Shown here: piece after piece, positions 755 through 8,097 of the stretch
Layout of the letters: each line of letters starts with the position of its first letter
Numbering within the stretch: position 1 is the first letter of the stretch
Assembly: GCA_963716145.1 (NCBI GenBank)
Contig: OY970292.1
Span: forward strand, 533,171-597,170
Reading direction: 5' to 3'
Source of the DNA: Candidatus Levyibacteriota bacterium
GTDB taxonomy: Bacteria > Patescibacteriota > Microgenomatia > Levybacterales > UBA12049
DNA length: 64,000 nt
Translations under genes and position numbers: made by a program
The notes under the pieces: model-generated
What the model was told of the DNA's origin: nothing
The model's database searches: none
What the model saw: the letters and a program-made list of their open reading frames with translations, nothing else

Positions 755-1394
755 ATGCATTTTGTGATTTTCACCGGCGGTACTCTGCAAAAAGGGCGGG
801 CTGTTGAGAACTCTTTGAAAAACTTTGACAAAATAATTGCTGTTGATAGCGGCGCTTCACACTGTACCCAACTCAAGCTAATCCCCGATTTTGTAGTTGG
901 CGACTTTGATTCTGTGGATAAAAGGATCCTTAAAAACTTTGAACAAAAAGGCTCCAAAATACTTAAATTCTCGCAGGAAAAAGACGCAACGGATACTGAA
1001 ATTGGAATTCAAACTGCCATTGAGCATGGCGCAACCAAAGTAAGCGTTCTTGGAGGACGCAGGAGATAGAATAGATCACATTCTCTCCAACATCCTGCTT
1101 CTTTTGAAAGAAAAATTCGCAAAAACGCGAATAAACTTCGTTAATGAAAATCAGCGAATTTTTATTGCAAGAAAAACCGTAAGCATTTCCGGCAAAAAGG
1201 GAGACACAGTATCTTTTATTCCAATTACGGGGAATGTGCCCGGCGTTGTCTCAACCGGCCTGAAATATAACCTTGCCAACTATCATCTCTCAATCCAAGG
1301 AAACCACGGAATAAGTAATGTGTTAACGCAGGATACAGCCACCGTAACCTGGAAAAAAGGCCCCTTCCTCATCGTCCACACTCAGCAAAGCTGA
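755..1394 (+). pseudogene. thiamine pyrophosphokinase (TPK/ThiN family), split by a +1 frameshift near 1055-1060
   Basis: ORF 755-1069 carries the TPK catalytic motifs (GDFDS, EKDATDTE). It ends in VLGGRRR*. ORF 1050-1394 in the next frame continues AGDRIDHILSNILLL and the thiamine-binding domain. Removing one base in ggaggaCgcagga restores the conserved LGGxGDRIDH motif. Confidence 0.6.
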
Positions 1395-1489: not shown

Positions 1490-1993
1490 ATGGCAGAAAA
1501 CGATGGAGACAATCCAAAAGTAGTCCCGAAAGGGACTAACGAAGGACCCAAACTGGAGCAACCAAAGCATCTTGATCCTCCCGCGAGTAAAACAAGCGCA
1601 CTCCCCGGAGCTGATGCTCCAACTGTAAACCCTGCTGCTGATGCCGCAGAGATAAGAGAGCTAAGAGATGAACTCTTAGCGATGGCAAGATTCGGCAATG
1701 AAGAGGATGCACGAGTTATCAATGATGAACTTGACCGCTTCATAGGACAAAAACAAGCAGAAGGAGGAAACCCTATTGCCGAGGATACTTCGGCCGCCAA
1801 AGGTGAGGCCGCAGAAAATGGACTACACGATGACACAAGTTCTCCCCCTGAAAAAACAGACGATGTGCCTAATCCACCAGATCCAGACGCAGCTTCTACG
1901 CAGACACCTGCTTTGCTAACTGGCGATGCTGCTACAGCAAAAGGTCAACCCCGCAGCAGTGTAATAGTACATGCGGAAGCCACCCCGCGATGA
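1490..1993 (+). CDS. hypothetical acidic Ala/Asp/Pro-rich protein
   Basis: ORF with low-complexity acidic composition. It overlaps the next ORF out of frame. Confidence 0.3.
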   Translation: MAENDGDNPKVVPKGTNEGPKLEQPKHLDPPASKTSALPGADAPTVNPAADAAEIRELRDELLAMARFGNEEDARVINDELDRFIGQKQAEGGNPIAEDTSAAKGEAAENGLHDDTSSPPEKTDDVPNPPDPDAASTQTPALLTGDAATAKGQPRSSVIVHAEATPR

Positions 1994-2993
1994 ACCCACA
2001 AGGCCAACCGATGAAGGTATTTTACTTCCGCACACTGAGGTTTATCCGCATATTGAAATACCTAGTAATGCAACTATTCATATTCTTTTTGGCCGACACC
2101 ACACGGCAGCAGATATAGGTGATATTGATAGATTTACAGCTCTTGTTAGAGGAAGCGATATTGTTATTCCTGAGGTAGCAGGATGGGAAGAGTCGGGACA
2201 AAAACTATATAACAGAGTAGCGAAAGGAGACTATGATGCTCGACAAAGACTAATAGCTGCTTTTGAAGGCTTAGCTAGGCAGGGAATGCCTGGTGCTGAA
2301 TTTGAGATAGAAGTAGTTAAAGCTCTATATAGCAGCGGTGCTCAAATTGCTTACGTTGATCTGCCCAAATCACATCCTGATGCTACACTAGACCCTTATA
2401 AGTTTATTGGAAAATTCCCGATTATAGGAAGTTTTGAAGAAGGAATTACCCGTTTGGATTCCAATATGCGAAAAGGTGCAAAGCATCAAAGATCAAGAGA
2501 GATAACAATTATAAAAACCCTTGGCGAATTACTCCCTAAAGCTATATCAAAACATCCTAAGCTAAAAGATAAGCCGGATGCCAAGGTTTTAATGTGGCTT
2601 GGTAAAATTCATACTCCTGTATTTGATGCTTTGCACAGAGATCACGGAGCTCAAGTCAGTAGTGAGTTTTATAAAGAACCACAACCTGACAATATTAGGG
2701 AGTTAGTGCTTGATTATGCTACGGGAGAAATTGACAGCCTGCCGCAAGAGGAAAGAAGGCTTGCTCAAGGAAGAGTACTTGCTGAAGTTGCAGCATCCAC
2801 GGCATTTCGTGGACTAGGTATTGATCCCTCACGATATACACAGGATGAGGTTTCCGCCAGAACTGCCAGAGTGATTAAACCTCTCTCTCTTGAGCAACTA
2901 GCAGAACTTTATAATGCTATTGCAAATAATCAAAGAGATAATATGACAGCATTAGGTTTCCAGACCTCATTAATAAGAGAATTTGCCCGATAG
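1971..2993 (+). CDS. hypothetical protein
   Basis: 340-codon ORF with native-like codon usage. No recognisable motifs. Confidence 0.4.
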   Translation: MRKPPRDEPTRPTDEGILLPHTEVYPHIEIPSNATIHILFGRHHTAADIGDIDRFTALVRGSDIVIPEVAGWEESGQKLYNRVAKGDYDARQRLIAAFEGLARQGMPGAEFEIEVVKALYSSGAQIAYVDLPKSHPDATLDPYKFIGKFPIIGSFEEGITRLDSNMRKGAKHQRSREITIIKTLGELLPKAISKHPKLKDKPDAKVLMWLGKIHTPVFDALHRDHGAQVSSEFYKEPQPDNIRELVLDYATGEIDSLPQEERRLAQGRVLAEVAASTAFRGLGIDPSRYTQDEVSARTARVIKPLSLEQLAELYNAIANNQRDNMTALGFQTSLIREFAR

Positions 2994-3086
2994 CTTTTAT
3001 CTATCCCCATTGTCCCCATAGGTGCGATGTATTGGATAAATTTGTTCAGTATTGCCTAAATTCTCAAAGTATTGTATATTATTGTT

Positions 3087-3210
3087 CTGGGGAGCTCGTT
3101 GTTCGGGCTGAGAGTCCGCCGGTAGGCGGAGACCCATTGAACCTGACTTGCCCCGCGAAGTCCGCCAGTTGGCGGACGAAGTGGGTCCGGATAATGCCGG
3201 CGGAGGGAAA
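3087..3210 (+). promoter_or_regulatory. TPP (THI-box) riboswitch
   Basis: Conserved THI-box blocks are present: GGGGAGC...CUGAGA, a P3 hairpin, ACCCAUUGAACCUGA, then CGGAUAAUGCCGGCGGAGGGAA. These sit immediately 5' of the ThiY-like ATG at 3213. An extra hairpin (gtccgccagttggcggac) that nearly duplicates P3 is inserted before GGAUAAUGCC. Confidence 0.8.
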
Positions 3211-3212
3211 CT

Positions 3213-4226
3213 ATGAAAAAACTCATTCTTCTTTTTGTTATTCTAATAATTGTTCTTTTTGCCCTCTTTCCCTTTCAGAATCAATCTCCCAAGAACCAAG
3301 AACCAAAAACCAAGAACTTTACTATCGCTCTTGACTGGACCCCCAACACCAACCACACCGGTATATATGTAGCACTGCAAAAAGGTTGGTACAAAGAGCA
3401 AGGCCTTGATATAAAAATTCTCCCCTACTCGCAAGTATCAGCTGATACTCTGGTATCCACAGGTAAAGCTGACGCCGGTATCAGTTCAACCGAAAATATA
3501 GTAGCGGATGCAGCGACAGGAAATCCTGTCGTCTCAATTGCCGCGATAATTGCGCATAACACATCAGCACTTGTCGCCCTGTCTGACAGCGACATCAAAA
3601 GCCCCCGCGACTTGGACGGAAAAATCTATGGTGGATTCGGATTGCCTTATGAACAAGCTGTGGTTAGCGAAGTGATTAAGCATGATGGCGGAACAGGCGA
3701 ATTTAAAAATGTAACACTTACCACCTCTGCCATGCAGGCTTTGGAGAGTAAAAAAATTGATTTTGTCTGGATTTTTATGAGTTGGGAAGGAATTGAGGCA
3801 AACCGTGCCAAACTTGGTTTGAAAGTTTTCCCTATCCCGATGTTTGGTATCCCCGATTATTCAACACCAAATATAATAACTTCTAAAAAAACGCTTGAGG
3901 AGAAAAAATTGCTAATCAAAAAATTTATGAACGCAACAAAACGTGGATTTGAATATGCAAGGATTCATCCCAAAGAATCTGCTCAGATTCTTATTGATGC
4001 TACGCCAAAAGGCACTTTTCCTGACACTGGGCTGGTCACTGACAGTCAAATATTCCTAAGTCCGCTTTATGCTGACCCTGGGAAAGCTTGGGGACTGCAG
4101 GACAAAGCCATGTGGCATAATTATCCGAAGTTTATGCTCCAGGCAGGAGCTGTAACTGACGTAGAGGGTAAAAAAGTGACCAAGTTGGATTTAGAAAGTT
4201 TGTATACCAATGAATTTTTGCAATAA
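3213..4226 (+). CDS. ABC transporter substrate-binding protein, NMT1/THI5-like (ThiY-like HMP/thiamine-precursor binding)
   Basis: Signal/TM N-terminus. NMT1/THI5 domain pattern (ALDWTPNTNHTGIYVA...GKADAGISS...DLDGKIYGG). It is preceded by the TPP riboswitch. Confidence 0.8.
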   Translation: MKKLILLFVILIIVLFALFPFQNQSPKNQEPKTKNFTIALDWTPNTNHTGIYVALQKGWYKEQGLDIKILPYSQVSADTLVSTGKADAGISSTENIVADAATGNPVVSIAAIIAHNTSALVALSDSDIKSPRDLDGKIYGGFGLPYEQAVVSEVIKHDGGTGEFKNVTLTTSAMQALESKKIDFVWIFMSWEGIEANRAKLGLKVFPIPMFGIPDYSTPNIITSKKTLEEKKLLIKKFMNATKRGFEYARIHPKESAQILIDATPKGTFPDTGLVTDSQIFLSPLYADPGKAWGLQDKAMWHNYPKFMLQAGAVTDVEGKKVTKLDLESLYTNEFLQ

Positions 4227-4288
4227 ATTTTCATTTTTCAATTTAAAATTTGAAATGAAACTTAAATGTTTAAAAATTTAAATTTGAA

Positions 4289-4309
4289 CCTTGCCTGCCG
4301 GCAGGCAGG
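4289..4309. repeat. GC palindrome cctgcctgccggcaggcagg, copy 1
   Basis: Perfect 20-nt palindrome 60 nt after the thiY-like stop. A near-identical copy lies at 43253-43272. Confidence 0.6.
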
Positions 4310-4392
4310 AATTCATTGAAAATTGTCCATTCGACAAGCTCAGGATCCTGAGTGTATCGAAGGAAAAATTTCAAATTGAAAATTATATTAAT

Positions 4393-5154
4393 ATGTCGGA
4401 TGAAATTCTTCGTATCTCGCGCTTAAATAAAATATTCCCAAACAATCTACAAGCTCTCAGTGAGATCGCGTTTTCTGTCAAAAAGCAGGAATTTGTGAGC
4501 ATAATCGGCCCATCAGGATGCGGCAAAAGTACACTTTTTAATATCCTAGCGGGGGTTGAAAATCAAACAACCGGCGCGGTTGAATTAAATGGAAAAACTG
4601 TCGCAAAGCGAGCTGGATTATTTGGCTACATGCCCCAATCCCCTCTTCTTCTTCCCTGGAGAACAGTTCTTGAAAATGTAATACTGGGCCAGGATGTACT
4701 GCGCGTACCACGAAAAATCTCCAAACAAAAAGCAATGAAAATTCTGCAGCAATTTGGTCTGTCTGAATTTGCTGCTAACTATCCAAATACTCTATCAGGA
4801 GGAATGAAGCAGCGAATTGCGCTGATCCGTACAGTCCTTTTTCAAAAAGACTTCCTTTTGCTTGATGAACCTTTTGGGGCTCTGGACTCACTCACCCGAT
4901 TATCCTGCCAGCTGTGGCTACTGGAGCTACAGAAAAAGCTCAAACCGACAATTCTTTTCATAACTCACGACGTGCGGGAAGCCATCTTCTTATCAGACAC
5001 TATCTATGTACTAAGTCCACGACCCGGGAAAATTATTAAAAAATTTGAGGTAGGACTTCCCCGACCAAGACAAAAAGAACAACTAGCATCACAACTTGCT
5101 GTCAGGTTGGAGCAGAAAATTCTGTCGCACCTTTTTAACGAAAAAAGTCTATGA
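4393..5154 (+). CDS. ABC transporter ATP-binding protein (NitT/TauT family)
   Basis: Walker A GPSGCGKST, signature LSGGMKQR, Walker B LLLDEP. The start is moved to the ATG at 4393; the track start at 4291 lies inside a palindrome. Confidence 0.85.
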   Translation: MSDEILRISRLNKIFPNNLQALSEIAFSVKKQEFVSIIGPSGCGKSTLFNILAGVENQTTGAVELNGKTVAKRAGLFGYMPQSPLLLPWRTVLENVILGQDVLRVPRKISKQKAMKILQQFGLSEFAANYPNTLSGGMKQRIALIRTVLFQKDFLLLDEPFGALDSLTRLSCQLWLLELQKKLKPTILFITHDVREAIFLSDTIYVLSPRPGKIIKKFEVGLPRPRQKEQLASQLAVRLEQKILSHLFNEKSL

Positions 5155-5900
5155 AACTGAAAAAAATCGCGCAATTCGGACCAAGCATTATTTTTCTCTT
5201 CCTAATTTTTCTGGTATGGGAAATTTTTGCTGAGTCTAATCAAATAAATAGCCGCTTGCTTCCCGCCCCATCAAAAATTGTTGCTGCACTGGTTAATAAT
5301 TGGAGCATCATCGCTCCCCACGCTTTCCAAACAATTCTTGAAACTATTATCGGCTTTGTAATCGCAATAATTCTTGGCGTAATTGTAGCCCTACTTTTGG
5401 ATTTCTCCCCCTGGGTGAGACGGACACTCTATCCCCTTCTTGTCACTTCTCAAACAATTCCCATGATCGCGCTTGCTCCTCTGCTGCTTGTATGGTTCGG
5501 GTTTGACCTTTTACCCAAAGTGATTATGGTTATATTGTTTTGCTTTTTCCCGATCGCTATCGCGACAGCCGACGGACTTGCTTCAACTGATAGTGACCTT
5601 TTAAAACTTCTCAAAAGTATGAACGCATCCTATTTTCAAACATTAAGATACGTCAAATTTCCAGGAGCTCTTCCGCAATTTTTTGCAGGTACTAAAATCG
5701 CAGCGACATACAGCCTTACAGGCGCTATTGTTGGTGAATATGTGGGGGCCTACCGAGGACTTGGGATTTATATGCAAACGATGAGCAATTCCCAGGCAAC
5801 AGTTCTTGTCTTTGCCGCGATTGTGGTAACAACACTGCTTAGTTTGGCGTTATTTGGAGTTATTATGCTGATTGAAAAAATCTGCACACCTTGGAATTAA
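5151..5900 (+). CDS. ABC transporter permease (NitT/TauT family)
   Basis: Polytopic membrane protein. ATGA start/stop overlap with the ATPase gene. Confidence 0.8.
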   Translation: MKLKKIAQFGPSIIFLFLIFLVWEIFAESNQINSRLLPAPSKIVAALVNNWSIIAPHAFQTILETIIGFVIAIILGVIVALLLDFSPWVRRTLYPLLVTSQTIPMIALAPLLLVWFGFDLLPKVIMVILFCFFPIAIATADGLASTDSDLLKLLKSMNASYFQTLRYVKFPGALPQFFAGTKIAATYSLTGAIVGEYVGAYRGLGIYMQTMSNSQATVLVFAAIVVTTLLSLALFGVIMLIEKICTPWN

Positions 5901-6000: not shown

Positions 6001-6072
6001 GCCGAGATAGCTCAGCGGTAGAGCAGCTGTTTTGTAAACAGCAGGTCCGGGGTCCGAATCCCCGTCTCGGCT
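6001..6072 (+). tRNA. tRNA-Thr (anticodon TGT)
   Basis: Cloverleaf folds by hand: acceptor gccgaga/tctcggc, D-stem gctc/gagc, anticodon stem gctgt/acagc with loop tttgtaa. T-loop reads tccgaat. Confidence 0.75.
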
Positions 6073-6170
6073 CTGTCTTCGTATAGCGAAGAACTTAGAA
6101 CAAAGAACTAAAAACAAAAAACGTTTTCTTAGTTCAAGGTTCATAGTTCTATGTTTTGCGTAGCAAACTA

Positions 6171-6254
6171 GCCAGATTCGCATAGCGGCAATTGCACCTC
6201 GCTGTAGACGAGGCGACCGTAAGGTCTACGGGGGTTCGAGTCCCTCATCTGGCA
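6171..6254 (+). tRNA. tRNA-Tyr (anticodon GTA), long variable arm
   Basis: Acceptor gccagat/atctggc, anticodon loop ctgtaga, 16-nt variable arm, T-loop ttcgagt. Confidence 0.75.
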
Positions 6255-6357
6255 CTCTATTCAGCTACGCTGAATACTAACGAACCAAGAACTGAAAACT
6301 CAGAAAGAAAATTTTCCTAGTCCTTGGTTTTTAGTTTTGAGTTCTGCTTTGCAGAAT

Positions 6358-6430
6358 GCCGAAGTGGCTCAGTGGTAGAGCAAGTCATTGGTAATGACTA
6401 GATCATGGGTTCCGATTCCCATCTTCGGCT
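6358..6430 (+). tRNA. tRNA-Thr (anticodon GGT)
   Basis: Acceptor gccgaag/cttcggc, anticodon stem agtca/tgact with loop ttggtaa. The T-loop appears to be 8 nt (ttccgatt). Confidence 0.7.
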
Positions 6431-8025: not shown

Positions 8026-8097
8026 AGGGACGTGGTGAAATGGTTATCACAGCAGTCTCCAAAACTGCTTTTCCCAGTTCGAGTCTGGGCGTCCCTG
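8026..8097 (+). tRNA. tRNA-Trp (anticodon CCA)
   Basis: Acceptor agggacg/cgtccct, D-stem gtga/tcac, anticodon loop ctccaaa, T-loop ttcgagt. Confidence 0.85.

What the first reader, a model, noticed from the sequence alone, without database searches (positions are those of the whole stretch)
3087..5900. Atypical TPP riboswitch with a duplicated P3-like hairpin controlling a ThiY-type ABC importer
All conserved THI-box blocks are present. An extra hairpin (gtccgccagttggcggac), nearly identical to the P3 hairpin (gtccgccggtaggcggag), is inserted between ACCUGA and GGAUAAUGCC, a position normally invariant in length. The riboswitch also overlaps the start codon region at 3213, so regulation is probably translational. 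Together with the adjacent TPK, this marks a thiamine-salvage module, as expected in a reduced genome.
Basis: partly seen in the sequence, partly recalled or inferred. Interest (0 to 1): 0.55.

Follow-up and report, generated by a model that had tools for sequence, protein, structure and literature searches.

The report
TPP riboswitch with extra inserted hairpin
This is a genuine vitamin-B1 (TPP) riboswitch controlling a thiamine-type ABC importer in a small CPR bacterial genome; it carries an extra hairpin at a solvent-exposed spot next to the pyrophosphate pocket, a variant found in many bacterial lineages that makes standard Rfam annotation miss these switches.

Summary
Window 3088-3208 (+) holds a complete TPP aptamer, with a 39-40 nt hairpin (3147-3186) inserted between ACCUGA and P5. 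The hairpin's tip (3159-3176) matches the hairpin after CUGAGA at 16 of 18 positions. That hairpin is P3a, not P3.

RF00059 scores 44.0 bits, below the gathering score of 54.3. This is an insertion penalty. Near-identical sister leaders without an insert score 70-73 bits, and the sister with the same insert scores 44.2.

The site is not invariant. A truncated scan of one genome per species gave at least 93 true TPP aptamers with 20-47 nt inserts here, in 10 or more lineages, upstream of thiamine genes. All 17 tested miss the Rfam threshold. The site corresponds to the bulge holding U62, which flips into solvent in the thiM structure.

The insert is older than the duplication: sister L201 shares its base but not the P3a-like tip. 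Control is most likely translational, because the SD (GGAGGG, 3202-3207) lies inside the aptamer core, the ATG is at 3213, and there is no terminator.

The binding protein is closest to a thiamin-bound SBP (4NMY). The TPK is syntenic but frameshifted here.

Verdict: a real structural variant of a known riboswitch, of moderate interest.

The parts
3052..3080 (+). Sigma-70-type promoter: -35 TTGCCT (3052-3057), 17-nt spacer, -10 TATATT (3075-3080). The implied transcription start is about 3086-3089, at or just before P2.
   Evidence: consensus scan. TTGCNT, exactly 17 nt, TAnnnT, then 6-8 nt to GGGGAGC is conserved in the window, L201, L202, L203, L204, L206 and L207, while the spacer sequences vary. 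The TSS itself is inferred.
3088..3136 (+). Pyrimidine-sensor arm: P2 (3088-3091/3133-3136), P3 (3093-3098/3104-3109), CUGAGA box (3108-3113), P3a hairpin (3114-3131; stem 3115-3120/3125-3130).
   Evidence: Rfam alignment. MFE fold. Covariation in 14 sister leaders, with 11 of 19 pairs compensatory.
3137..3146 (+). J2/4 (UUGAA), the P4 5' strand CCU (3142-3144), and G3145 and A3146, the equivalents of thiM G60 and A61.
   Evidence: The numbering follows the thiM aptamer by alignment to the consensus (my inference). The G-G pair and GCG pyrophosphate contacts are described in PMC5882874.
3147..3186 (+). J4/5 insertion: base helix 3152-3156/3181-3185, symmetric GAA/GAA internal loop 3157-3159/3178-3180, distal P3a-like hairpin 3160-3177. 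U3186 is the U62 equivalent.
   Evidence: the insert alone folds at -24.4 kcal/mol. (a clean indel relative to sister leaders). (L201 shares the base helix and GAA/GAA loop). (identity to P3a).
3187..3208 (+). P5 (3187-3190/3197-3200) with L5 AUAAUG; J5/4 C3201 G3202 (pyrophosphate contacts); G3203; P4 3' strand AGG (3204-3206); G3207 A3208.
   Evidence: In an insert-deleted variant, P4 and P5 are predicted in the MFE.
3202..3215 (+). Shine-Dalgarno GGAGGG (3202-3207) embedded in the aptamer core, a 5-nt spacer, and the start codon ATG at 3213-3215.
   Evidence: The same AGGGAAAnnAUGAAAAAA layout occurs in L201-L204, L206 and L207. No terminator is present.
3213..4226 (+). NMT1/THI5-family periplasmic binding protein (ThiY family; probably thiamine-binding).
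   Evidence: Pfam PF09084, E 7.7e-64. PDB 4NMY E 5.6e-61 and 3IX1 E 3.1e-24. 4NMY is described as 'with thiamin-bound' in PMC10586155.
4291..5154 (+). ABC transporter ATPase. This is the ORF as listed; the true start is probably later, because sister genes are 254-258 aa.
   Evidence: Pfam ABC_tran. NCBIfam taurine/nitrate/sulfonate-type ATPases. Sister gene calls.
5151..5900 (+). ABC transporter permease, overlapping the ATPase stop codon.
   Evidence: Pfam BPD_transp_1. NCBIfam TauC/SsuC-type.
755..1394 (+). Thiamine pyrophosphokinase gene, split into two ORFs (755-1069 and 1050-1394) by a 1-nt frameshift near 1061.
   Evidence: Pfam TPK_catalytic plus TPK_B1_binding on separate ORFs. Sequence reading. 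The intact 213-aa TPK of L201 aligns to the window in two frames. TPK is intact in L201, L202 and L204.

Best explanation
This is a functional TPP riboswitch of the OFF type that represses translation of a thiamine-type ABC importer operon directly.

The aptamer core is canonical. The Shine-Dalgarno sequence GGAGGG (3202-3207) is itself made of the J5/4 pyrophosphate-contact nucleotides, the P4 3' strand and the junction purines, and the AUG follows 5 nt later. When TPP clamps the two sensor arms together, P4 and the junction form, the SD is buried, and the 30S subunit cannot load. Without TPP, the 3-bp P4 opens and the SD is free. This step is inferred.

The 39-40 nt element between ACCUGA and P5 is a peripheral 'variable insertion'. 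It leaves the core at the A61/U62 bulge, whose U62 points into solvent in the thiM structure, and it folds on its own into a stable two-tier hairpin. It turns the P4/P5 arm into a three-way junction without touching the ligand contacts. It is most likely tolerated rather than required. At most it weakens ligand-free P4 and so tunes the switch.

The insert arose before the split from sister L201. Later, in the window's lineage, its tip was replaced or extended by a copy of the neighbouring P3a hairpin.
For: Core identity: full-length RF00059 match, 44.0 bits, E 1.3e-7 locally, with every conserved box present.

With/without-insert comparison in near-identical leaders: L203 73.0 and L202 69.6 bits (no insert), L204 55.1 (20-nt insert on the other strand), L201 44.2 and window 44.0 (J4/5 insert).

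Covariation: P2, P3, P3a and P5 show compensatory changes at 11 of 19 pairs in 14 sister leaders.

Insert is modular: it folds at -24.4 kcal/mol alone. P2, P3, P3a and P5 all form around it in the MFE. Strand-swapped or anti-SD alternatives are 16-32 kcal/mol worse.

They come from Thermoleophilia/Actinomycetota, cyanobacteria, several Bacillota lineages, Sumerlaeota, Omnitrophota, Anaerolineae and others. They lie upstream of ThiC, ThiD, ThiM, ThiS, Thi4, YuaJ and an SBP gene, and many are followed by terminators. In 52 Thermoleophilia-class aptamers the two inserted hairpins covary (A-U 31 / G-C 20; C-G 35 / U-A 12), and P4 is predicted to enclose them.

Dispensability: seven sister leaders of the same operon, six of them with the same SD-in-core platform, lack any insert.

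Translational control: no terminator, the SD sits inside the core, and the layout is conserved. 'Direct translation attenuation' is a recognised riboswitch mechanism (PMC2258182).

Order of events: L201 shares the base CUUGCCCCGCGAAG...CGAAGUGGGG but has a 2-bp distal stem and a different P3a. L205 has no insert but has P3a GUCCGCCAGUAGGCGGAG, 17/18 identical to the window's P3a and 16/18 to the insert tip.
Against: No experiment has been done; ligand binding and regulation are inferred. No convincing P1 helix exists. RNAalifold finds none in 14 leaders, and Rfam's P1 has 2 of 5 non-pairs. The conserved promoter puts the transcript start at or just before P2, whereas a thiM aptamer without P1 hardly binds TPP in vitro (PMC2018614). 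The way the two arms are held together here is therefore not explained. Nearest-neighbour energies say that closing P4 around the insert costs energy: the canonical fold is -52.9 kcal/mol against -53.7 without P1/P4 and -57.8 for the MFE. The insert could therefore weaken binding. The near-identity of P3a and the insert tip has no functional explanation under this reading. It is treated as a historical accident.
Confidence: 0.8

Rival explanations
1. The insert is a functional tuning element. By turning P4/P5 into a three-way junction next to the pyrophosphate pocket, it destabilises ligand-free P4, so the SD is more open without TPP. It could also change ligand affinity, Mg2+ dependence or kinetics, and so shift the response threshold or dynamic range of the importer switch.
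For: Deleting the insert in silico lets P4 and P5 appear in the MFE, whereas the natural sequence does not predict P4. Inserts at this site are conserved and covary within large clades. Within the CPR ThiY leaders, hairpins have been acquired at both flipped-out positions flanking the pocket: the U62 side in the window and L201, and the U79 side in L204. These two inserts resemble each other beyond chance (p about 0.0005).
Against: Sequence and length of the inserts are unrelated between lineages, which is the pattern expected of neutral variable insertions. Seven sister leaders regulate the same operon, six of them through the same platform, without any insert. Computed SD accessibility with and without the insert is mixed rather than clearly shifted.
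Confidence: 0.15
2. The twin hairpins (P3a and the insert tip) act together. They could be two copies of a binding site for a protein or other trans factor, packed helices that stabilise the closed aptamer, or partners in a strand exchange that forms an alternative ligand-free fold.
For: The identity is 16/18 and far above the empirical background: own P3a 15/17 against a maximum of 11/17 for 106 others. L103 (Omnitrophota) also has a P3a and two J4/5 hairpins sharing UCCGC/GCGGA arms. The arms GGCGGA(G) also match the J5/4-P4 3' strand at 3199-3205, and an 8-nt complement exists between 3115-3122 and 3197-3204.
Against: Strand-swapped and anti-SD folds are 16-32 kcal/mol less stable than the modular fold. 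P3a-insert similarity is absent in the other insert classes, and cyanobacterial examples have no P3a at all. Closest sister L201 has the insert without the similarity. The two loops are not complementary on inspection of the sequences (my reading of GGUA and AGUU, not a tool result).
Confidence: 0.04
3. The element is a decayed or non-functional aptamer, or the insert is an assembly artefact, so the sub-threshold Rfam score is a true negative.
For: The score is below the gathering threshold. The assembly has at least one frameshift, in the TPK. An independent short-read contig, L001, stops exactly at the 3' edge of the insert, so it does not confirm the insert.
Against: All ligand-contact boxes are intact. 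The same insert base occurs in an independent metagenome assembly, L201. The score deficit equals the insertion penalty seen in sisters. L001 confirms 3187-4312 at 100% identity. The downstream operon is intact.
Confidence: 0.02

Closest known systems
TPP riboswitch / THI element (Rfam RF00059), e.g. E. coli thiM and thiC, B. subtilis tenA
   Same: The architecture is the same: P2-P3-(P3a) pyrimidine arm with CUGAGA, J2/4, and a P4-P5 pyrophosphate arm with GAUAAUGCC and GCGnAGGGA. It sits upstream of thiamine genes, and OFF logic is expected.
   Different: A 39-40 nt hairpin sits in J4/5, making a three-way junction in the pyrophosphate arm. The score is below the family gathering threshold. 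There is no convincing P1, and a promoter lies 8 nt upstream of P2. The SD is built from core nucleotides rather than sitting in a separate expression platform as in thiM.
'Variable insertions' and the optional P3a stem of riboswitch aptamers (Barrick & Breaker 2007, PMC2258182)
   Same: A non-conserved stable stem-loop is tolerated at a specific solvent-facing site. [quoted passage not shown]
   Different: The documented optional element in TPP aptamers is P3a, present in 552 of 907 sequences. I found no paper naming a J4/5 (U62) or J5/4 (U79) insertion site. Rodionov et al. 2002 could not be read.
Direct translation attenuation riboswitches (SD inside the aptamer), as in preQ1, AdoCbl and SAM-I examples; category of Barrick & Breaker 2007
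   Same: Purine-rich conserved 3' nucleotides of the aptamer double as the ribosome-binding site. There is no separate anti-SD hairpin or terminator.
   Different: That paper says it is unclear why this mode is not more common in classes other than AdoCbl, preQ1 and SAM-I. Here it is the conserved design of a whole CPR ThiY-leader family.
ThiXYZ / ThiY pyrimidine (FAMP/HMP) ABC importer of Bacillus halodurans (PDB 3IX1), and the thiamin-bound C. difficile SBP 4NMY
   Same: An NMT1/THI5-fold binding protein with a TauB/TauC-type ATPase and permease, under TPP riboswitch control.
   Different: The protein is much closer to 4NMY (thiamin-bound) than to FAMP-binding ThiY. It is genetically linked to TPK rather than to ThiD/ThiE, which points to import of intact thiamine.

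Membership tests
TPP riboswitch (RF00059) | Covariance-model score at or above the curated gathering score (54.3 bits) | tested here: not met
   The window scores 44.0 bits and is not listed at gathering. The deficit is explained by the insertion: insert-free sisters with the same core score 69.6-73.0 bits, and L201 with the same insert scores 44.2. The match is full length (model 1-105) with E 1.3e-7 in the local search.
TPP riboswitch (RF00059) | Conserved ligand-contact boxes: CUGAGA (pyrimidine pocket), ACCUG-A, G-AUAAUGCC (L5), GCG-AGGGA (pyrophosphate pocket and P4) | tested here: met
   All are present at 3108-3113, 3141-3146, 3189-3198 and 3200-3208.
TPP riboswitch (RF00059) | Helices P2, P3, (P3a), P4 and P5 supported by base pairing and covariation | tested here: met
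   P2, P3, P3a and P5 appear in the MFE and covary in 14 sister leaders, with 11 of 19 pairs compensatory. P4 (CCU/AGG) is invariant, so it cannot be tested by covariation. It is predicted in the insert-deleted variant and in the Thermoleophilia consensus.
TPP riboswitch (RF00059) | A P1 helix closing the three-way junction | tested here: inconclusive
   Rfam's P1 has 2 of 5 non-standard pairs. No P1 appears in the family consensus fold. The conserved promoter places the 5' end at or near P2. An alternative 3+3 bp P1 that includes the AUG is possible only if transcription starts further upstream.
TPP riboswitch (RF00059) | Location in the 5' leader of thiamine biosynthesis or transport genes | tested here: met
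   It lies immediately upstream of the NMT1/THI5-family SBP-ATPase-permease operon, whose SBP is closest to a thiamin-bound SBP. TPK synteny is conserved.
TPP riboswitch (RF00059) | Selective binding of TPP and ligand-dependent gene control | not testable with these tools
   This needs in-line probing or ITC, and reporter assays.
ThiY-type (ThiXYZ) pyrimidine-precursor importer | The binding protein is homologous to FAMP-binding ThiY (3IX1), with the NMT1/THI5 fold | tested here: met
   PF09084 at E 7.7e-64; 3IX1 at E 3.1e-24.
ThiY-type (ThiXYZ) pyrimidine-precursor importer | The substrate is HMP/FAMP rather than thiamine | tested here: inconclusive
   The best solved homologue, 4NMY (E 5.6e-61), was crystallised with thiamin bound. 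No ThiD, ThiE or TenA was seen among the neighbours examined, only TPK. This favours thiamine, but the ligand-contact residues were not compared.
Direct translation attenuation | The SD and start codon lie within or abut the aptamer, with no terminator or separate anti-SD stem | tested here: met
   The SD is at 3202-3207 inside J5/4-P4, the ATG is at 3213, and no terminator-like site is present. The layout is conserved in sisters.

The most novel reading that the evidence does not exclude
Hairpin insertions at the two flipped-out nucleotides flanking the pyrophosphate pocket (the U62 side in the window, L201 and at least 93 other species; the U79 side in L204) define an unrecognised, widespread structural subclass of TPP riboswitches in which the pyrophosphate-sensor helix is a three-way junction. 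In the CPR ThiY leaders this is combined with a P1-less, promoter-proximal aptamer whose core nucleotides are the ribosome-binding site. In this reading the inserts are functional: they would compensate for the missing P1 or tune affinity or kinetics. The window's P3a-copy tip would record intramolecular hairpin copying as a way in which riboswitch peripheral elements evolve.
Probability: 0.12. Interest if true: 0.6.

Novelty: new variant of a known kind. Interest (0 to 1): 0.4.

Why it matters
Practical: TPP aptamers with a J4/5 hairpin fall below Rfam's gathering score. None of the 17 tested was listed at the gathering threshold. Seven re-scored at the permissive threshold gave 33.6-49.5 bits, and an eighth (L103) gave no match at E <= 0.1. 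Thiamine regulons are therefore under-annotated in whole clades, including Thermoleophilia, some cyanobacterial thiC leaders, several Bacillota and CPR. A model that allows an insertion at this site would recover them.

Structural: the result maps a second tolerated insertion site, after P3a, onto the TPP aptamer, right beside the pyrophosphate pocket. It matches the extrahelical U62 (and perhaps U79) seen in crystal structures. This is useful for engineering, for example for grafting tags or scaffolds.

Biological: it documents a compact TPK plus thiamine-importer salvage module in CPR bacteria, controlled by a minimal riboswitch whose core is also its ribosome-binding site and which seems to lack P1. 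If that is confirmed, it questions how essential P1 is.

Tried and rejected
(1) Dispersed repeat or mobile element: there are no other copies of the hairpin in the 64 kb, so this was rejected for the window. It could not be tested genome-wide.

(2) CRISPR repeat: the weak CRISPR-DR28 hit (19.6 bits, E 0.49) is just the hairpin. Rejected.

(3) Simple tandem duplication of a 46-nt unit: the sequence after the two hairpins is unrelated (my reading). Rejected.

(4) Strand exchange between P3a and the insert, or anti-SD pairing, as an expression platform: these folds are 16-32 kcal/mol worse than the modular fold. Rejected as the main mechanism.

(5) P3a-insert similarity as a general rule of J4/5-insert aptamers: it is not seen outside the window, apart from a partial case in L103.

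(6) Transcription termination: no terminator is present.

(7) First regex screen of ThiY leaders: it was too strict and was replaced by an nhmmer profile.

(8) Literature: eight searches found no description of a J4/5 insertion. Rodionov 2002 (PMID 12376536) is not held, so prior description cannot be excluded.

(9) Independent assembly support for the insert: the upstream-ORF look-up was not on record. L001 starts just after the insert.

(10) The two ORFs between the TPK and the riboswitch (1490-1993, 1971-2993): no Pfam or NCBIfam hit and no similarity to L201's 447-aa ORF at the same position.
Full report
OBSERVATION. Window 3078-3225 (+) matches the TPP riboswitch model RF00059 over its full length at 44.0 bits, with E 1.3e-7 in a local scan. 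It is not reported at the curated gathering score of 54.3 bits. All conserved boxes are present: CUGAGA 3108-3113, ACCC 3132-3135, GAACCUGA 3139-3146, GGAUAAUGCC 3189-3198 and CGGAGGGA 3201-3208. Between ACCUGA and the P5 hairpin lie 39-40 extra nucleotides (3147-3185/6). The model absorbs them as a 47-nt stretch where it expects 8. The insert contains AGUCCGCCAGUUGGCGGA (3159-3176), which matches AGUCCGCCGGUAGGCGGA (3113-3130) at 16 of 18 positions. No other copy exists in the 64 kb. The true P3 is 3093-3109.

IS THE SUB-THRESHOLD SCORE A REFUTATION? No. I recovered the leaders of the closest ThiY operons from public assemblies. They align with the window base for base, from the promoter to the first codons, except for clean indels. 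Rfam scores are 73.0 bits for L203 and 69.6 for L202, which have no insert. [quoted passage not shown] L201, with a 32-nt J4/5 insert, scores 44.2, and the window, with 40 nt, scores 44.0. The 26-29 bit deficit is therefore the insertion penalty and not core decay. Across 14 leaders of this family, P2, P3, P3a and P5 covary, with 11 of 19 predicted pairs showing compensatory changes.

IS THE SITE 'NORMALLY INVARIANT'? In the Rfam consensus it is, but not in nature. I scanned one genome per bacterial or archaeal species for the pattern GAACCTGA-N(20-50)-GGNTAATRCC-N(1-6)-CGNAGGGA. About one hit is expected by chance on my own rough estimate. After removing 25 cases in which the first box is really the P3 3' arm plus CUGAGA, 93 remain. 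These are genuine TPP aptamers, nearly all with a (C)UGAGA box upstream, and they carry a true 20-47 nt insert at this position.

The 93 fall into unrelated sequence classes:
- about 52 distinct Thermoleophilia/Actinomycetota aptamers with two tandem hairpins;
- Synechococcales and Alkalinema thiC leaders with one long hairpin and no P3a;
- Thermincola and Phosphitispora, Desulfotruncus, Aquicultor, Sumerlaeota, Syntrophomonadaceae and Dethiobacter, Hydrogenibacillus, Omnitrophota, Anaerolineae and Cytophagales.

The first ORFs downstream of representatives are ThiD, ThiC (twice), YuaJ/ThiT, ThiM, ThiS, Thi4 and a solute-binding protein. Many aptamers are followed by obvious intrinsic terminators. 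In the Thermoleophilia class the consensus fold recovers P2, P3, P3a, P4 and P5 with both inserted hairpins nested inside P4, and both hairpins show compensatory changes: A-U 31 / G-C 20, and C-G 35 / U-A 12. None of 17 representatives reaches the Rfam gathering score. Seven of eight re-scored ones give 33.6-49.5 bits, and L103 is not detected at all.

WHY THIS SITE? By alignment to the thiM aptamer, G3145 corresponds to G60 and A3146 to A61. The insert follows, then U3186 corresponds to U62 and P5 starts at C3187. [quoted passage not shown] A helix leaving the backbone at this bulge can point away from the pocket. The pyrophosphate contacts (G60; the GCG motif with C77 and G78; PMC5882874) are intact here as G3145, C3201 and G3202. 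Strikingly, L204 carries its hairpin at the U79 position.

Thermodynamic folding agrees with a modular insert. Alone it forms a two-tier hairpin at -24.4 kcal/mol, made of base helix 3152-3156/3181-3185, a symmetric GAA/GAA loop and distal stem 3160-3166/3171-3177. P2, P3, P3a and P5 form around it in the MFE. Folds in which the twin hairpins swap strands, or in which their UCCGCC arms pair with the GGCGGA of J5/4, are 16-32 kcal/mol worse. The only predicted cost is that the 3-bp P4 must now close a three-way junction. P4 appears in the MFE of an insert-deleted variant but not of the natural sequence.

HISTORY OF THE INSERT AND THE 'DUPLICATION'. L201 is the closest relative available. Its GuaA homologue is 76% identical, and it has the same gene order: two small ORFs, TPK, an unknown ORF, the riboswitch, ThiY, the ATPase, the permease and tRNAs. 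It has the same insert base, CUUGCCCCGCGAAG...CGAAGUGGGGU, and the same GAA/GAA loop. Its distal stem is only 2 bp (GCCUUGUGC), and its P3a is different (GUUCCGGUCUAACCGGAUA). The insert therefore predates the split, and the P3a-like tip is specific to the window's lineage. L205 has no insert, but its P3a is GUCCGCCAGUAGGCGGAG, which is 17/18 identical to the window's P3a and 16/18 to the insert tip, sharing the first loop base A with the tip. P3a is therefore the ancestral source and the insert tip is the copy. The similarity is not hairpin background: the window's own P3a matches the tip at 15/17, and the best of 106 other P3a segments reaches 11/17. It is also not a general property of J4/5-insert aptamers. 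Only L103 (Omnitrophota) shows something comparable, with a P3a and two inserted hairpins sharing UCCGC/GCGGA arms. I have no functional explanation for it and treat it as a local copying event. One further unexplained resemblance: the window's insert (CCCG-CGAAG-hairpin-CGAAG-UGGG) aligns with L204's opposite-strand segment (CCGG-CGAAG-hairpin-CGAAG-GGA) better than 1,999 of 2,000 shuffles. This hints that the two insertions share an origin, or were both built from the core CCGG-CGAAG sequence.

EXPRESSION PLATFORM. There is no terminator-like site. The SD GGAGGG (3202-3207) consists of G78, the U79-equivalent, the P4 3' strand and the first junction purine, and the AUG follows at 3213. The same AGGGAAAnnAUGAAAAAA layout is conserved in L201-L204, L206 and L207. 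This is the 'direct translation attenuation' category of Barrick & Breaker, who describe it for AdoCbl, preQ1 and SAM-I and say it is unclear why it is not more common in other classes with purine-rich 3' ends (PMC2258182). The mechanism I infer is that TPP-induced closure of the arms forms P4 and the junction and buries the SD, while without TPP the 3-bp P4 opens. L205 instead has a terminator platform in front of a Thiamine_BP gene.

AN OPEN PROBLEM: P1. In the window and six sisters, a -35 TTGCNT, a spacer of exactly 17 nt and a -10 TAnnnT are conserved while the spacers vary. The -10 ends only 6-8 nt before GGGGAGC. The transcript should therefore begin at or just before P2. Consistent with this, Rfam's P1 has 2 of 5 mismatches, and the family consensus fold has no P1. 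A thiM aptamer lacking P1 hardly binds TPP in vitro (PMC2018614). Either these aptamers manage without P1, or a second upstream start provides a 5' strand. A 3+3 bp helix UAU-U-GUU / AAC-U-AUG that includes the start codon is possible on paper. I could not resolve this.

THE OPERON AND THE 'SALVAGE MODULE'. The operon consists of ORF 3213-4226 (NMT1/THI5-like SBP), 4291-5154 (ABC ATPase) and 5151-5900 (permease). The components are of the TauABC/SsuABC type by NCBIfam. The closest solved structure is 4NMY (E 5.6e-61), a C. difficile SBP deposited 'with thiamin-bound' (PMC10586155). The FAMP-binding ThiY 3IX1 is far more distant (E 3.1e-24), followed by THI5/THI13. Together with the conserved TPK-ThiY linkage and the lack of other thiamine genes among those I examined, the likely cargo is thiamine itself, which TPK then converts to TPP. 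In this assembly the TPK is split by a 1-nt frameshift near 1061. Reading VLGGR and then skipping one base gives GDRIDHILSN, and L201's intact TPK aligns in two frames. This is either an assembly error or a pseudogene. The organism is a Patescibacteria (CPR) bacterium: the contig is 1.14 Mb and the best GuaA relatives are Saccharimonadales, Gottesmanbacteria and 'Patescibacteria group'.

COMPARISON WITH THE KNOWN, AND VERDICT. Functionally and structurally this is a TPP riboswitch. It fails only the curated score criterion, for an understood reason, and its P1 is doubtful. The element departs from textbook TPP riboswitches in three ways: the J4/5 hairpin, the SD-in-core platform and the promoter-proximal, P1-poor 5' end. 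Riboswitch 'variable insertions' are a known phenomenon. I found no paper that names this site, but I could not read Rodionov et al. 2002, and Barrick & Breaker's alignments may contain examples. I therefore rate it a new variant of a known kind, with moderate interest. A specialist would not find it very surprising, but the variant is widespread, systematically missed by annotation, and structurally informative.

Noticed in passing
window 755-1394: The thiamine pyrophosphokinase gene is split into two overlapping ORFs (755-1069 with the catalytic domain, 1050-1394 with the B1-binding domain) by a single-base frameshift near 1061. Relatives have one intact ORF of 212-214 aa. This is either an assembly error or a pseudogene.
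   Followed up: partly
window 3052-3089; L201-L204, L206, L207 leaders: A conserved promoter (TTGCNT, 17 nt, TAnnnT) ends only 6-8 nt upstream of P2, and no P1 helix is supported. This family of TPP aptamers may be naturally P1-less.
   Followed up: partly
L204:2888-3007: A sister leader has a canonical J4/5 but carries a 20-nt hairpin (UCGCGUUUAACGCGA flanked by CGAAG repeats) on the opposite strand, at the position of the other flipped-out nucleotide, U79. It resembles the window's insert (p about 0.0005), and Rfam scores it at 55.1 bits, barely above threshold.
   Followed up: partly
L002-L120 (genome scan): At least 93 TPP aptamers with J4/5 inserts occur in about 10 lineages. All 17 tested miss the Rfam gathering score. 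The Thermoleophilia class has two covarying inserted hairpins and an unusual P2 (GCG/CGC, with 'ACGC' in place of ACCC).
   Followed up: partly
L141:524-673, L143:281-430, L145:305-454: In these soil-metagenome ThiY-operon leaders, a full TPP aptamer is followed about 60 nt later by a second P4/P5-only half (GGGAACCUGAUCUGGGUAAUACCAGCGGAGGGA) with no visible 5' half.
   Followed up: no
L103:6486-6658 (-): An Omnitrophota thi4 leader has a TPP aptamer with two tandem J4/5 hairpins and a P3a that all share UCCGC/GCGGA arms, followed by a terminator. Rfam does not detect it even at E <= 0.1.
   Followed up: partly
L001 (Logan ERR11593400) = window 3187-4312: An independent short-read contig is 100% identical to the window but begins exactly at the first base after the insert. 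This may reflect an assembly-graph break at the hairpin or strain heterogeneity in the insert.
   Followed up: no
L205:394-696: In the relative whose ThiY is most similar, the riboswitch uses a terminator platform and precedes an extra Thiamine_BP (PF01910, YkoF-like) gene placed before ThiY.
   Followed up: no
window 1490-2993: Two ORFs (167 and 340 aa) between the TPK and the riboswitch have no Pfam or NCBIfam match and no similarity to the 447-aa ORF at the same position in L201. This slot in the module is variable.
   Followed up: partly
window 6001-6430, 8026-8097: A cluster of four tRNA genes lies directly downstream of the importer operon. The tRNA cluster is syntenic in L201, L202 and L203.
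   Followed up: no
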